Positions 24,001 to 30,000 of a DNA stretch of 38,682 bases are shown piece by piece; the stretch's first letter is position 1, and each line of letters begins with the position of its first letter. The position numbers were made by a program. Location: sequence record OV696608. One strand, written 5' to 3'. Origin of the DNA: Escherichia phage Gally.

Positions 24001-27000
24001 TTCAAATCATCCATGTTTTCTGCCTGAGCCATTTCATCACAAAGAAGTTGTGCTTTATCCGTTATTTCCTGCTGGCGTTTCCGTTCATCTTCGCGGATAT
24101 CTTCCTCTGATTTGTGCGGCATAACTGGTTCAGTCCACACACCTTCTTCTTCGTTTAGTACGTGAATAGCACTATCAAGACGTGATGCCTTAGGCCAATA
24201 CTTGCTTGCACGCTTTACGACCGTCTTTCGCGCCATCTCATTCCAGTGATTTACCCATGGTCCTTTATCGCTGAATGCTGCCTTGCTTGTTTTCCTTACA
24301 GCCTCAATTTCAGCCAGACTCATCTCTTCCGTTAGATAATCACCTGCTGGCGTCTTCACTGTGCAGTAAACGCCAACGATATCACCACGGTCACCGAAGG
24401 CTTTGTATTTATGGGTTGGTGCTTTATCAAGCCCGTTTGACTCATAGGTATCGTTAGCATGAACAAGTTTTGCCTGACCCCATGAGATAACACCAGACTC
24501 CATTGCAATATGGAGCAATCCCATGTAACTGATATCAAGGCATACCATGCCGTCGCGCGGAACCAGATAAGCCAGTTTGCTGGCAGGATTTAAGGTGATG
24601 CCGATCGCCGCAACATTGATGATGGCGTTCTGTGCGCTGGTTGGATTTGCCAGTGCTGTTTTAGCCAGGTAATCATTTTTCTGGAAATACTGAATTGCAA
24701 ACTGGCTTTCCTTAGCCCATGTCACCGTCTGTTCAGTCAATGCCCCGCAGAATAACTGCTCCTGCTGTTTAACGAATTCAACGATATTGCTCATGCTGCT
24801 TCTCCAAAAATGTGTCTGCGTTTGAATATTGCGAAGGCATATTCAGCCTTAACTCTTTCGGTTATTGCATCCCAGAACCATTCAGCGGCTTTTTCCTGAT
24901 AGTTACAATCATCATCTTCCAGCCAGTCGATAGCGTCCTTAGTGTGTTCATCTGGTTTATATGAGCGAAGCATTTCGCTTATTGGGTCGCAACGTTTGCA
25001 GAGGCGATCAACTTCACTGTTGATTCGCTCGTAATCTTCATCAGTAAAACTTGCGATTATTTGCGATATTTCACGCTTATCATTCAGAGTCAGAATCATC
25101 ATCTTTCTCCTGTTCTTTGTGCTGATTGAGCATTTTGTTCATCTGACGAATGAATTCTTCGTCTGACCAGTTGTCTGTAAAACTCATGGACGGCCTTGTT
25201 GTTTCAAAATATCCCAAAGCTTTTCGAGCAAGCTTTTCATTCTTGGTTGTTTAAAGTCTGCTCCGGTTAAAATGTTTTTTCGTGAATGCTGTACCGATAA
25301 AATCGGGTTGAAAGGGCGAACCGATGCCGCCCCTGCAATAGCGAACTGTTGCATAGGATGCTCCTTCTGTTTGATTGCATAACGAAAACGCCTCTAGTGA
25401 AGCGTTATTGGTATGCATATAAAAAGGCCCTCACACTGGAGGGCAAAGAAGATTTCCAATAATCAGAACAAGTCGGCTCCTGTTTAGTTACGAGCGACAT
25501 TGCTCCGTGTATTCACTCGTTGGAATGAATACACAGTGCAGTGTTTATTCTGTTATTTATGCCAAAAATGAAGGCCGACTATGCGGCCTGAAATTACTTA
25601 ACCAATGATGCTGCATATTCGATAAGGTAAAGTTTTGGGGCCAGCCAAATTTTTAACCAAGTCATATTGGTTACTACACCAATAATAAAAAACCCCCACA
25701 GAGTCAAAACTCCAACCAATGGCATGATAAGAAGGTTAATATCTCCTTTGCTATCCCAAACCATTGTCGGCCTGTATTTGGGATTTCCCCTCTCCCATGA
25801 GTATCCTTCATCACCGATTTTACCTGTCTCAACTCTTTGGCACTGCTTCTTCATAAACCAGAAAACCAGTGGGATTGTTAGAATGGCTATTAATGTTTTA
25901 ATCAGACTGTCAACCATATTCCATAGCAGCAACTGATGAACAACATCAGGAATCTGTGCCTGGCTAAATGAAACAGCCGCGTCTATTCCATTACTGGCTT
26001 TTTGCAGTAGTTCTACGAGAATCTTGTTTGCTTGTTCTTCCATATATCACCTTGATTGTAATAATCATGAAATTATTTACGGACAAAAATAAAGGCCACC
26101 ATCAGGCAGCCTTGTTGTAAATGTTGCAGGTATCAAGTAAGTAATTAGATGGAGCGCCATAAATTATGAATTCATCGTTTGTCGGGTCCATCTCCATCTC
26201 TTGGCCTATTGCCATTCTTGCGTCAGTGTCATCAGCGGCGAAGCATAAAACAGCCCACGCACCCATTGTTTTAAAAAGAACTGCAATTGGCTGTGGTTTT
26301 ACTGAATTTGCGTTAGCGCGAAAATCACAAATCGCACTTTCATGAAACTCCATATCTCACCTCAAATAAGTGGTTTGCTGCCTAATTTCATTTTCTGGCG
26401 ACCAACACAAGTCACACCCATTTCACTGCGTGGCTTGCGGTAGTAAATACGGTTCTGTTTACGCTCGACTTCTTCTGCCTTCTTGCAGCGAAGGCTTACG
26501 AGTGATGCTGCTTTATCTGCTCTGACGCAACCAGAGAGCTTTAGCGCAATCTTTCGCGCCAGTCGCTGTTCTTGCATTGCCTGTTCACGTTGAGCCTGTC
26601 TGCGTGCTCTGCGTCGATTTCTGGCGTTATCGTCAGCCAGATATGTAATGACTACTGTCATGTTGACCTCCGATGATTGACTTTGGTGATTGGATGGCCG
26701 GTGCTGAATTCCGGCTTACTGGTTAGAGCGCCCGCACTACCAGTGACGCTGTCTTGAGGCGCAGATTGGTTACTGCTTGCCATGAGCGCTGTTTATACAT
26801 TGGTCGAGCATCAGCCTGCTCATTCATCCAATCCCAAAGCCAACTACTCTTTGGTTCCCGCATTTCGGCGGGACAATCCCATCAATGTTAAAGAGCCTGC
26901 CAATCTGTTCCGTTTGGCTACCAGCGTCCTGCTGATGGCTTAAATTTAAGATCTCTTTAATTAATGGTCAAGAGTATTTTTGAAGAAAACTTAAATTTTC

Positions 27001-30000
27001 TTTCGTAACTTAAGTTTGGCTTTGATTTTTAAAGGAAATAAAAAAAAAGGGGCGAATGCCCCCTTATGGAAGGTTTGCTAGTTTTGCATCGACAACTACG
27101 CCGATGATTTTGCAGTTTCCGTTGATCTCGATCATCGGATATTGTGGGTTAAGTGGTTTTAGAAACTTCCTGCCTGCATCAATAACTAACTTCTTGAAAG
27201 TTGCCTCGTTTTCTCCTTCGAGCTTTGCAACTACCAGTTTCCCGTTACGCGGCTCTACTTCAGGATCGACGAGTATTATCATTCCTTCAGGGATACTGAG
27301 ACCGGCCGGAGCCGTCATTGAGTCTCCCTTCACGTCCAACCAAAACGAATCTTCTGAACAGTCTACGGTTGTATCGTACCAGTTATCTATTGCACGCTTA
27401 TGATATGGTTCTACAGCTTCCATCCAGCATCCTGCGCTCACCCAGCTAATCAGAGGGTATGACCCTCTTGGATCATGCCTACTGTGATAGGCAATGTTTG
27501 AAAGACTTTCCTCTCCTTTTATCAGATAGTCAGGGGAACACTTCAACGCATTAGCCAGGGCGAGAAGATTCTCTCCATTTGGCTCTGTCTCAGAGCGTTC
27601 CCACTGAGATATGGCAACATTAGACACGCCGACCATCTTTCCAAGTGCGGCCTGCCTGATCTTGAGTTCTTTTCTCCGAGCGCGAATGCGCTCTCCCATC
27701 AATTGAGTTTTCATAGTTAAGACATCTTAAATAAACTTGACTTAAGATTCCTTTAGTGGATAATTTAAGTGTTCTTTAATTTATGAGCGAGTCTATGTAC
27801 AAGAAAGATGTTATCGACCACTTCGGAACCCAGCGTGCTGTAGCTAAAGCGTTAGGCATTAGCGACGCAGCAGTCTCTCAGTGGAAGGAAGTCATCCCAG
27901 AGAAAGACGCCTATCGACTGGAAGTCGTTACAGCTGGCGCCCTGAAGTATCAAGAAAGCGCTTACCGCAAAGCGGCATAAGCAAATTGCTCTTTAACAGT
28001 CATGGTCCTCATTCCCGCCGAAATGCGGGAATACAACGCGCATAAGTTGATGCGCATAACTTCTTATTTGTTAAGGAAATACTTACATATGGTTCGTGCA
28101 AACAAACGCAACGAGGCTCTAAGAATCGAGAGTGCGTTGCTTAACAAAATCGCAATGCTTGGAACTGAGAAGACAGCGGAAGCTGTGGGAGTTGATAAGT
28201 CGCAGATCAGCAGGTGGAAGAGGGACTGGATTCCAAAGTTCTCAATGCTGCTTGCTGTTCTTGAATGGGGCGTCGTTGACGACGATATGGCCCGATTGGC
28301 ACGACAAGTTGCTTCGATTCTCACCAATAAAAAACGCCCGGCGGCAACCGAGCGTTCTGAACAAATACAAATGGAATTTTAATAACATCCAACGAGGTAA
28401 TTATATGCGAAACAAAGGCTTTAATCCACCTGATACACACAAAGAAGCTAAGCGTTTGCGCTTCCTTCGTTCCATTGATGAAAGAACTCAAATCTCTTTT
28501 GTGAAAGTTGCCAGAACTGAGCTTCTGAAGGATGAGGCGAGGGCGTTGCTCCCGTCTCTACCAAAAGAGGAGGGATATACGTTCATTCCAAACGCATTTC
28601 TGGAAAAGCTGCTCAAAGAAGACATATCCGTAAGTCAGTTTAACGATGTTCTTAAGGTCTTTCGTCAAGGCAGGTAGTTATGAGCAATACAGCAAAAATC
28701 TACGATTTCAGCGCCGCACACGAGCGCAGGAGCAACAGGATGGAGAACCAGAAAACTGGTTACATTCCGTTGTACCGGAGCATTCTGAAACAGTCATGGG
28801 CGAAAGATGTTTATCTTCGCACCCTGTGGGAAAACCTTCTCCTGAATGCCGCCAGAAAGCCATACAAAGCGAATTTCAAAGGTCATGAATGGCATCTGCA
28901 ATCCGGTCAACTGGTTGTGACAGCAGCTGATTTAGGTCTTCAGTTATGCGACAGACATGGCAAGCCAGCAAGCCGTGATCAGGTTGAGCGGATGCTTCAG
29001 GTTTTTGTGAAAGAGGGGATGATCTCCATTGATGGAGAGAAGCAAAAAGGTCGTGTGATAACCATCACAAATTACCATGAATATGCTCAAAAAATGGACA
29101 ATTCACCCGCACATGAAGCCGCACAAACAACCGCACATGATGCCGCACATGATGAAGCCAGTAATGGTGCGGCATTCAGCGTACATGCCGCACATGAAAG
29201 CGCACATGAAGCCGCACAAACAACCGCACATCATGAACAAGAAGGTATTAACAAGAATATAAATAATACCCCCCTACCCCCCAATGGGGGAGGCGATGGG
29301 CAGGTTAAACCTGAACGTCGCAATGCAGAACGCATCGACTACGAATCCTTCCTGAACGCCTACAACACCGAAGTCGGTGACAGACTGCCACACGCTGTTG
29401 CGGTCAACGAGAAACGCAAACGCCGCCTGAAGAAAATCATCCCGCAACTGAAAACGCCAAATGTGGACGGTTTCAGAGCGTATGTCAGGGCGTTTGTGCA
29501 TCAGGCCAAGCCGTTTTACTTCGGAGACAACGACACGGGCTGGACGGCTGATTTTGATTACCTGCTGAGGGAAGACTCGTTAACGGGAGTTCGGGAAGGG
29601 AAGTTTGCAGACAGGGGGATTGCATGAGACAGGATATCGAAGCGAGCGTTATCGGTGGCCTGCTGATTGGTGGATTAACTCCAACCGCCAGTGACGTTCT
29701 GGCAACGCTTGAGCCGGAAGCGTTTTCAATTCCGCTCTACCGGAAAGCCTTCGAAGTTATCCGGAAGCAGGCGCGAAACAGAAACCTAATCGACGCGTTG
29801 ATGGTTGCCGAGGCGTGCGGAGAGGAGCATTTCACGTCAATCCTGATGACCAGCAAAAACTGCCCGAGCGCCGCAAACCTGAAGGGATATGCCGGAATGG
29901 TCGCGGATAACTATCACCGCCGTCTGGTGCTGGAAATCATGGATGAAATGCGTGAACCAATTCAGAGCGGAACCATCGACGCATCGAGTCAGGCGATGGA

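What the first reader, a model, noticed from the sequence alone, without database searches (positions are those of the whole stretch)
26856..28030. nutL and nutR share a boxB hairpin distinct from lambda and P22, paired with a chimeric N
Both sites contain boxA GCTCTTTAA followed by the same hairpin TCCCGC-CGAAAT-GCGGGA, in the correct orientation for each operon. The hairpin differs from lambda boxB (GCCCTGAAGAAGGGC) and from the P22 boxB I recall. The N protein has an arginine-rich motif unlike the one I recall for phage 21 while its C-terminal part matches it. Together this suggests an N-nut specificity pair inside a P22-type immunity region.
Basis: partly seen in the sequence, partly recalled or inferred. 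Interest (0 to 1): 0.5.

Follow-up and report, generated by a model that had tools for sequence, protein, structure and literature searches.

The report
HK620-type N antiterminator and nut sites
The two hairpins and the hybrid N gene are real and almost certainly form a working phage antitermination pair, but the same pair was annotated in coliphage HK620 in 2001 and is common in E. coli prophages, so this is an ordinary, already known feature.

Summary
TCCCGCCGAAATGCGGGA occurs exactly twice in the window (26856-26873 minus strand, 28013-28030 plus strand; 0 expected by chance). Each copy lies 14-16 nt downstream of boxA GCTCTTTAA, and the two face away from a P22/phage-21-type immunity cassette (cI is 92% identical to P22 C2 and 97% to phage 21 cI).

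N (26362-26661, minus strand) is a mosaic. Residues 1-33, including the arginine-rich motif (ARM), differ from phage 21 N. Residues 34-99 match phage 21 N at 63 of 66 positions.

The pair is not new. HK620 (AF335538) has the same nutL, the same nutR from boxA onward, and an identical ARM; its record annotates both sites as putative nut sites. The same hybrid N sits in CUS-3, IME10 and other phages. The stretch is 100% identical to the E. coli LF82 prophage (probably Gally). 264 of 5426 complete E. coli genomes carry at least 80% of it.

In 120 viral contigs, 206 of 207 boxB copies follow a boxA, and an ARM-bearing N lies downstream of one copy per locus. The pair brackets 9 immunity cassette types and joins several N C-termini.

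The only possibly new point is structural. This boxB looks like P22 boxB-R without the looped-out C, and no binding study was found in the held library.

The parts
26943..26971 (-). pL promoter (TTGACC, 17-nt spacer, TAAATT) overlapping the OL operators
   Evidence: Consensus scan. Aligns with the annotated pL/OL of phage 21.
26888..26896 (-). boxA of nutL (GCTCTTTAA)
   Evidence: Identical in phage 21, HK620 and CUS-3. Annotated as boxA-L in the phage 21 record.
26856..26873 (-). boxB of nutL: 6-bp stem UCCCGC/GCGGGA with loop CGAAAU
   Evidence: Identical to the boxB inside the annotated nutL of HK620.
26675..26844 (-). N leader with a long-range stem that encloses a segment variable between phages, between boxB-L and the N ribosome-binding site
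   Evidence: RNA fold of 26650-26905 (minus strand): -90.4 kcal/mol, z = -3.7, 0 of 200 shuffles as stable. The outer stem is conserved in HK620 and CUS-3, and phage 21 shows changes on both sides of it (read by eye). A role like the lambda RNase III site is inferred.
26362..26661 (-). N gene (99 aa). Residues 1-64 match HK620 N (62 of 64); residues 34-99 match phage 21 N (63 of 66). The two matches overlap at residues 34-64, which all three proteins share.
   Evidence: The C-terminal residues 62-99 match the lambda N C-terminus in PDB 6GOV. Pfam N_peptide gives a weak hit, 21.5 bits, below the 27.9-bit cut-off.
26572..26631 (-). Arginine-rich motif (ARM), residues 11-30: DNARNRRRARRQAQREQAMQ
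   Evidence: It sits in the same register as residues 8-29 of phage 21 N, the peptide solved with boxB in PDB 1NYB.
26092..26113 (-). First intrinsic-terminator-like hairpin plus T-run downstream of N in the pL operon (candidate tL1). More lie at 25572-25589 and 25427-25444.
27064..27714 (-). cI/C2 repressor (216 aa, HTH_3 plus Peptidase_S24)
27737..27764 (+). pR promoter (TTGACT, 16-nt spacer, GATAAT) within OR
   Evidence: The OR sequence is nearly identical to P22 OR.
27795..27980 (+). cro (61 aa, P22_Cro family). An in-frame ATG also lies at 27783.
27988..27996 (+). boxA of nutR (GCTCTTTAA)
   Evidence: Annotated as boxA-R in the phage 21 record.
28013..28030 (+). boxB of nutR, identical to boxB-L
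   Evidence: Identical to the boxB inside the annotated nutR of HK620.
28038..28070 (+). Hairpin GCGCAU-AAGUUG-AUGCGC followed by a U-rich tract, upstream of cII: candidate tR1 region
   Evidence: Read. Identical in HK620, whose record places tR1 immediately after boxB. The terminator scan did not detect it, so its function is inferred.
28089..28382 (+). cII (97 aa, lambda Phage_CII family)

Best explanation
These are the nutL and nutR sites and the N gene of a P22-like prophage, probably the LF82 prophage Gally. They form a lambdoid N-dependent processive antitermination system of the HK620 specificity type. Transcripts from pL and pR carry boxA, which is the NusB/NusE site, followed by the boxB hairpin UCCCGC-CGAAAU-GCGGGA. 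The ARM of N (about residues 11-30, NARNRRRARRQAQREQ) binds that hairpin. The central part of N and its lambda/21-like C-terminus then engage NusA and RNA polymerase. The modified polymerase reads through the terminators beyond N on the left and before cII on the right. What is shown here: the sequence features, their positions and orientation, their identity to the annotated HK620 sites, and strict co-occurrence of ARM and boxB. What is inferred: binding, Nus dependence and antitermination. The mosaic is explained by recombination at shared sequences (boxA plus the transcript start on each side, and N codons 34-64). Such exchanges swap immunity cassettes and N C-termini around a constant ARM/boxB set.
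For: - Two exact copies of boxB, each after a boxA, in divergent orientation around cI-cro.
- HK620 has an identical nutL, a nutR identical from boxA through the hairpin after boxB, and an identical ARM; its record annotates the sites as putative nutL/nutR.
- The same hybrid N, 98% identical, is in CUS-3, IME10 and vB_EcoP-611R6.
- In 120 IMG/VR loci, 206 of 207 boxB copies have a boxA within 40 nt upstream. An ARM-bearing N lies downstream of one copy in every locus checked that had room.
- The converse holds. ARM-positive phages from different virion types (HK630, ECP1, phi367, Stx2_5044) all carry both boxBs.
- Variant nutR partners change the stem but keep the loop CCGAAAUG.
- A Pantoea relative with a phage-21-like ARM (NAKSRYRARR) has 21-like loops instead; its nutR uses the same stem as L017's nutR.
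- The N C-terminus is homologous to the lambda N C-terminus in the antitermination complex 6GOV.
- pL, pR and downstream terminator-like sites are in the expected places.
- The LF82 prophage Gally is inducible and produces abundant virions (PMC9928086), so if the window is Gally its early gene programme works.
Against: - Nothing here tests binding or antitermination directly.
- N reaches only a sub-threshold Pfam N_peptide score.
- No Rfam family covers nut sites.
- The candidate tR1 is not a consensus intrinsic terminator.
- Whether the HK620-type pair is truly orthogonal to P22 or phage 21 is unknown, because the ARMs share the A-x-x-R-x-x-x-R-R frame (identical at only 4-6 of 10 core positions) and the boxB resembles P22 boxB-R.
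- The primary HK620 paper could not be read, so 'already described' rests on its GenBank annotation.
Confidence: 0.9

Rival explanations
1. The pair is functional but is not a separate specificity. The HK620-type ARM and boxB cross-react with P22 gp24/boxB or phage 21 N/boxB, so they would be a sequence variant within an existing recognition class.
For: - The boxB equals P22 boxB-R (ACCGCCGACAACGCGGU) apart from loss of the loop C and one C-to-U change.
- The ARM core NARNRRRARR matches P22 NAKTRRHERR at 6 of 10 positions and phage 21 TAKSRYKARR at 4 of 10, in the same register.
- The stem and loop geometry (6 bp plus 6 nt) equals that of phage 21 boxB.
Against: - In natural genomes the ARM and loop types never appeared mixed in about 125 loci.
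- The two P22 residues reported to contact the looped-out C (His7, Arg11; PMC12550061) are Arg and Gln here. This mapping assumes peptide numbering starts at Asn.
- The phage 21 loop UAAC is replaced by GAAA.
Confidence: 0.3
2. The hairpins serve mainly another role, such as RNA processing or stability sites, terminators, or binding sites for another protein, and N acts elsewhere.
For: - A large structured leader lies directly downstream of boxB-L.
- A second hairpin follows boxB-R.
Against: - Neither boxB is followed by a U-tract.
- Both sit 14-16 nt after a consensus boxA in both early operons.
- 206 of 207 copies in relatives keep that arrangement.
- The loop is invariant while stems vary, which is the pattern expected of a protein-read loop.
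Confidence: 0.04
3. The N gene or the nut sites are decayed relics in a defective prophage.
For: - RefSeq labels N only as 'hypothetical protein'.
- A true relic of this kind exists in mEp213: a second N gene preceded by a broken boxB and no boxA.
Against: - The N open reading frame is intact and 98% identical to N of isolated, plaque-forming phages.
- Both nut sites are intact.
- The LF82 prophage Gally makes about one virion per cell in culture (PMC9928086).
Confidence: 0.03

Closest known systems
Coliphage HK620 N / nutL / nutR (GenBank AF335538; Clark et al. 2001, cited from memory)
   Same: nutL is identical from the transcript start through boxA, spacer and boxB and about 25 nt beyond. 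nutR is identical from boxA through the hairpin that follows boxB. N residues 1-53 are identical and residues 1-64 match at 62 of 64.
   Different: - HK620 has its own immunity cassette (cI 39% identical).
- It has a P22-c1-type cII.
- Its N leader is shorter, 107 nt against 194 nt here.
- Its N C-terminus is the ...AAGYRKSKQLTAR type, which its record calls similar to H-19B N, not the lambda/21 type.
Phage CUS-3 (CP000711) and relatives IME10, vB_EcoP-611R6 and HF4s
   Same: CUS-3 has the same architecture: a P22/21-type immunity cassette, HK620-type boxBs and the same hybrid N at 98% identity. The other three share the hybrid N.
   Different: CUS-3 carries a 502-bp insert ('bsq5') in the N leader. 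Its nut sites are not annotated in the record.
Phage 21 N-boxB (PDB 1NYB)
   Same: - The immunity region is about 88% identical in DNA, and boxA and pL/pR are the same.
- N residues 34-99 match at 63 of 66.
- boxB has the same geometry: a 6-bp stem and a hexaloop whose central 4 nt are flanked by two pyrimidines.
- PMC12550061 describes the 21 loop as a C.C-flanked UAAC turn.
   Different: The loop is CUAACC rather than CGAAAU, and the stems are different. The ARM is TAKSRYKARRAELIAERR rather than NARNRRRARRQAQREQAM.
P22 gp24-boxB (PDB 1A4T)
   Same: - cI, cro and the operators are 89-92% identical at the protein level.
- P22 boxB-R, ACCGCCGACAACGCGGU, is the nearest known boxB sequence.
- The ARM frame N-A-x-x-R-R-x-x-R-R is shared.
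   Different: - The P22 loop is the pentaloop GACAA with a looped-out C, whereas here the loop core is the tetranucleotide GAAA.
- His and Arg at the positions reported to contact that C are Arg and Gln here (inference).
- The rest of gp24 is not recognisably similar: about 20% identity in a gapped global alignment.
Lambda N-boxB (PDB 6GOV for the full complex)
   Same: The overall mechanism is the same. The C-terminal RNA-polymerase-binding segment is homologous. The loop is GNRA-like and the ARM core is RRRxRR.
   Different: Lambda boxB is a GAAAA/GAAGA pentaloop on a GCCCU stem, and its boxA is CGCTCTTA. Lambda Trp18 has no aromatic counterpart here (Ala or Met at the aligned positions). 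The lambda sequences are cited from memory.

Membership tests
Lambdoid N/nut processive antitermination | boxA consensus in the leader of both early operons, on the transcribed strand | tested here: met
   GCTCTTTAA at 26888-26896 (minus) downstream of pL and at 27988-27996 (plus) downstream of cro.
Lambdoid N/nut processive antitermination | boxB stem-loop a short distance downstream of boxA at both sites | tested here: met
   Identical 18-nt hairpins 14 and 16 nt after boxA; dG -9.7 kcal/mol.
Lambdoid N/nut processive antitermination | [quoted passage not shown] | tested here: met
   99-aa ORF at 26362-26661 (minus), ARM at residues 11-30, 194 nt downstream of boxB-L.
Lambdoid N/nut processive antitermination | Homology of the N C-terminal region to the RNA-polymerase-binding part of lambda N | tested here: met
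   Residues 62-99 align to lambda N residues 74-110 of 6GOV, E = 2.6e-4. The Pfam N_peptide hit is below its cut-off.
Lambdoid N/nut processive antitermination | Terminators downstream that N-modified polymerase must pass | tested here: inconclusive
   Terminator-like sites lie on the minus strand at 26092-26113, 25572-25589 and 25427-25444. On the right, only a non-consensus hairpin at 28038-28055 is present.
Lambdoid N/nut processive antitermination | N- and Nus-dependent readthrough of terminators | not testable with these tools
   Needs reporter or genetic assays.
HK620-type N-nut specificity class | boxB UCCCGCCGAAAUGCGGGA at both nutL and nutR | tested here: met
   18 of 18 identical to the boxBs inside HK620's annotated nutL and nutR.
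HK620-type N-nut specificity class | ARM ...DDNARNRRRARRQAQREQAMQEQ | tested here: met
   Residues 1-53 are identical to HK620 N.
Phage 21 N-nut specificity class | boxB with the CUAACC hexaloop, and the ARM TAKSRYKARRAELIAERR | tested here: not met
   The loop is CGAAAU. Only 6 of the first 33 N residues match phage 21 N.
P22 gp24-nut specificity class | boxB with the GACAA pentaloop, and the ARM NAKTRRHERRRKLAIER | tested here: not met
   The loop lacks the C. The ARM core matches at 6 of 10 positions, and the protein overall is about 20% identical.
Lambda N-nut specificity class | boxB GCCCUGAARAAGGGC, and an ARM with Trp18 | tested here: not met
   The stem and loop are different, and no aromatic residue sits at the aligned position. 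The lambda sequences come from the finding and from memory.

The most novel reading that the evidence does not exclude
The HK620-type ARM/boxB may be a distinct N-boxB recognition mode alongside lambda, P22 and phage 21, and no binding or structural study of it was found in the held library. It would be a genuine GAAA tetraloop closed by a C.U mismatch. That is P22 boxB-R without its looped-out cytosine, matched by ARM changes at the two residues that contact that base. It might be orthogonal enough to the three classic pairs to serve as an additional RNA-tethering tag, and it would be a natural example of stepwise co-evolution of peptide and RNA.
Probability: 0.35. Interest if true: 0.35.

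Novelty: already known. Interest (0 to 1): 0.15.

Why it matters
This matters little for discovery. The result correctly labels an unannotated N gene ('hypothetical protein' in RefSeq) and two nut sites in a clinically studied E. coli strain's prophage. It also documents that one ARM/boxB set is shuffled among at least 9 immunity cassettes, several N C-termini and several virion types. The only forward-looking value is that this widespread pair seems not to have been studied biochemically. It offers a simple natural comparison (P22 boxB-R with and without the extruded C; loop GAAA against UAAC on the same stem) for how arginine-rich peptides read RNA loops.

Tried and rejected
- An Rfam scan of 25500-29000 at E <= 1 found nothing. 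No nut or boxB family matched.
- Pfam on N gave only a sub-threshold N_peptide hit.
- The PDB sequence search found no ARM match for the window's N, only the lambda C-terminus. P22 gp24 found nothing, presumably because its solved peptide is shorter than 20 residues.
- The primary HK620 paper (PubMed 11518522) and the Cocozaki 2008 P22 boxB paper (PMC2446750) are not held. 'Already described' therefore rests on GenBank feature annotation.
- Literature searches for HK620 or CUS-3 with boxB, nut or antitermination found no experimental work on this pair.
- The third GCTCTTTAA at 36163 (minus strand) was rejected as a nut site because no hairpin follows it and the flanking sequence shows no nut-like context.
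- My first ARM regular expression missed point variants and suggested exceptions. On inspection, all the exceptions with room had the ARM.
- One IMG/VR hit (L011) is an unrelated chance match with no boxA.
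Full report
**1. Observation**

The 18-nt sequence TCCCGCCGAAATGCGGGA occurs exactly twice in the 38.7-kb window, at 26856-26873 on the minus strand and 28013-28030 on the plus strand. No further match exists with up to two mismatches, and none appeared in 100 shuffles. GCTCTTTAA lies 14 nt (left) and 16 nt (right) upstream of each copy on the transcribed strand. A third GCTCTTTAA at 36163 (minus strand) has no hairpin after it and is taken as chance. As RNA, the element folds into a 6-bp stem (UCCCGC/GCGGGA) with the loop CGAAAU, at -9.7 kcal/mol.

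The two sites face away from each other around these features:
- a repressor gene (27064-27714, minus strand);
- cro (27795-27980, plus strand);
- pL (26971-26943, minus strand);
- pR (27737-27764, plus strand).

The first gene leftward is a 99-aa arginine-rich protein (26362-26661, minus strand).

**2. The neighbourhood**

The stretch 26300-28100 is 100% identical to the chromosome of E. coli LF82. RefSeq calls the N gene there a 'hypothetical protein'. The locus is probably the P22-like prophage Gally, which is inducible and produces abundant virions (PMC9928086).

The repressor is 92% identical to P22 C2 and 97% identical to the phage 21 repressor. Cro is about 90% identical to both, and OR is almost the same as P22 OR. 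'P22-type immunity region' is therefore correct, and phage 21 is the closest named relative, with 88.5% DNA identity over the immunity region. cII is of the lambda type.

**3. Mosaic structure**

A four-way alignment of the leftward transcript (window, phage 21, HK620, CUS-3) shows sharp boundaries:
- pL/OL: like phage 21 and CUS-3.
- Transcript start through boxA: identical in all four.
- boxA-boxB spacer, boxB and about 25 nt beyond: like HK620 and CUS-3, unlike phage 21.
- Interior of the N leader: a different segment in each phage.
- N ribosome-binding site and codons 1-33: like HK620 and CUS-3.
- Codons 34-64: shared by all four.
- Codons 65-99: like phage 21 and CUS-3, unlike HK620.

At the protein level, N residues 1-64 match HK620 N at 62 of 64, and residues 34-99 match phage 21 N at 63 of 66. 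The C-terminal 38 residues align to the C-terminus of lambda N in the antitermination complex 6GOV.

On the right, the window equals phage 21 through cro and boxA. It then equals HK620 through boxB and the following hairpin, up to the cII start.

The swapped pieces are exactly the ARM and the two boxBs.

**4. The pair is already described**

HK620 (AF335538) carries an identical nutL and a nutR that is identical from boxA through the hairpin after boxB. Both are annotated in its record as 'nutL/nutR; putative N-utilization'. Its N has an identical ARM.

The same hybrid N (HK620 ARM plus 21-type C-terminus, 98% identical) is in CUS-3, IME10 and vB_EcoP-611R6, and at 92% identity in HF4s. 264 of 5426 complete E. 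coli genomes contain at least 80% of the 1.8-kb stretch.

**5. Evidence for a linked specificity pair**

The main results are:
- Of 207 boxB copies, 206 have a boxA within 40 nt upstream. The one exception is an unrelated chance hit.
- In 91 cassettes (87 from IMG/VR, plus the window, HK620, HK630 and CUS-3) the two copies are divergent.
- An N with the ARM lies downstream of one copy in every locus checked that had room. The apparent exceptions were single-residue ARM variants.
- The 91 inter-nut cassettes fall into 9 clusters with different repressors.
- The same ARM is joined to several C-terminal modules...AGYRKSKQLTAR...RQKMKLGSKPLI...SIPAYYD and others.

The converse also holds. ARM-positive phages of other virion types all carry both boxBs: HK630 (Lambdavirus), ECP1 (Hendrixvirinae), phi367 (Sepvirinae) and an Stx2c phage.

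Where the nutR partner differs, the changes are in the stem. They include a U.G wobble, one G-C to A-U change and some mismatches. The loop and its closing pair (GC-CGAAAU-GC) stay the same.

A Pantoea relative has the same N scaffold but a phage-21-like ARM (NAKSRYRARR). Its loops are 21-like (CUAAUC, CUGACA). Its nutR uses the very stem that locus L017 uses with the CGAAAU loop. The sample is small, but it shows the loop tracking the ARM rather than the stem.

**6. Mechanism**

What is shown: the positions, orientation, conservation and co-occurrence described above.

What follows from established knowledge of lambda N: NusB/NusE bind boxA, the ARM binds boxB, and the rest of N bridges to NusA and RNA polymerase. 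The polymerase then reads through downstream terminators. Candidates here lie at 26092-26113, 25572-25589 and 25427-25444 on the left and at the hairpin 28038-28055 on the right.

Binding and antitermination were not tested. Activity of the LF82 prophage is indirect support.

**7. Comparison with known boxBs**

The boxB is not that of lambda, P22-L or phage 21. Its nearest relative is P22 boxB-R (ACCGCCGACAACGCGGU). Removing the loop C and changing one flanking C to U gives the core of the present hairpin.

PMC12550061 reports that in the P22 complex the looped-out C contacts His7 and Arg11 of the peptide. It also reports that the phage 21 hexaloop CUAACC is a UAAC turn flanked by a C.C pair.

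If the P22 peptide numbering starts at Asn, those two positions are Arg and Gln here. The loop here would then be a GAAA turn flanked by C.U, with the same 6-bp plus 6-nt geometry as phage 21. This is inference, not a tested result.

I found no experimental study of this pair in the held library.

**8. Verdict**

This is a real and almost certainly functional N/nut system of the HK620 type, inside a P22/21-type immunity cassette. It is already present and annotated in public phage records and is very common. Novelty is 'already known' and interest is low. The residual interest is the uncharacterised recognition chemistry and the clear modular shuffling pattern.

Noticed in passing
window 26675-26844 (minus strand): Between boxB-L and the N ribosome-binding site, a long-range stem (GUUGGCUUUGGGAUUGGAUG ... 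CAUCCAAUCACCAAAGUCAAU) encloses about 130 nt. The fold has z = -3.7. The outer stem is conserved in HK620 and CUS-3, and phage 21 appears to change both sides of it. It resembles the RNase III-processed N leader of lambda (from memory).
   Followed up: partly
IMG/VR loci L006-L125; CUS-3 locus L002 1533-2034: The distance from boxB-L to the N start codon is highly polymorphic. It is 107 nt in 50 loci (the HK620 form), 194 nt in the window, and up to 618 nt elsewhere. Different inserts sit inside the conserved outer stem, and CUS-3's 502-bp 'bsq5' is one of them.
   Followed up: partly
mEp213, locus L128 30879-31527 (minus strand): mEp213 has a lambda-type nutL and a lambda-like N. It also has a second, intact HK620-type N gene about 1.2 kb further down the pL operon. 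That gene is preceded by a broken boxB (GCCCTCCGAAATGCGGGA, 5' arm replaced, no boxA). No intact HK620-type boxB occurs anywhere in the genome. It is an orphan ARM of unknown use.
   Followed up: partly
L130 (Pantoea sp. FN060301) about 3843-4270 and about 2704; L017 1097 and 2593: The same MTVVITYLA... N scaffold carries a phage-21-like ARM (NAKSRYRARRAAKRE) with boxB loops CUGACA (nutL) and CUAAUC (nutR). The nutR stem GCUCCCGC/GCAGGAGC is the same one that L017 uses with the CGAAAU loop and a NRRRERR ARM. This is a natural swap of loop and ARM on a constant stem.
   Followed up: partly
window 27780-27797: Upstream of cro, the window reads TTTATGAGCGAGTCTATG where P22, phage 21 and CUS-3 read TTTCGGAGCGAGTCTATG. 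The GGAG Shine-Dalgarno becomes TGAG, and an in-frame ATG four codons upstream is created. The effect on Cro translation is unknown.
   Followed up: no
window 26102-26353 (minus strand): The gene directly after N is an 83-aa ORF with no Pfam match. It sits where phage 21 and CUS-3 carry ral. The same ORF occurs in at least one IMG/VR relative, L026.
   Followed up: no
window 27046-27065: A G+C-rich hairpin AAGGGGGCATTCGCCCCTT flanked by T-runs lies between the end of cI and OL. It matches the terminator annotated at the same place in phage 21.
   Followed up: no
window 36163-36171 (minus strand): A third exact GCTCTTTAA has no hairpin downstream. It is judged a chance occurrence: 3 matches against 0.37 expected, and 1 of 100 shuffles reached 3.
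   Followed up: yes
L098 about 6599 (minus strand): One IMG/VR prophage has its nutR boxB interrupted after TTCCCGCCG by unrelated sequence, apparently an insertion or rearrangement. Its N is also truncated.
   Followed up: no
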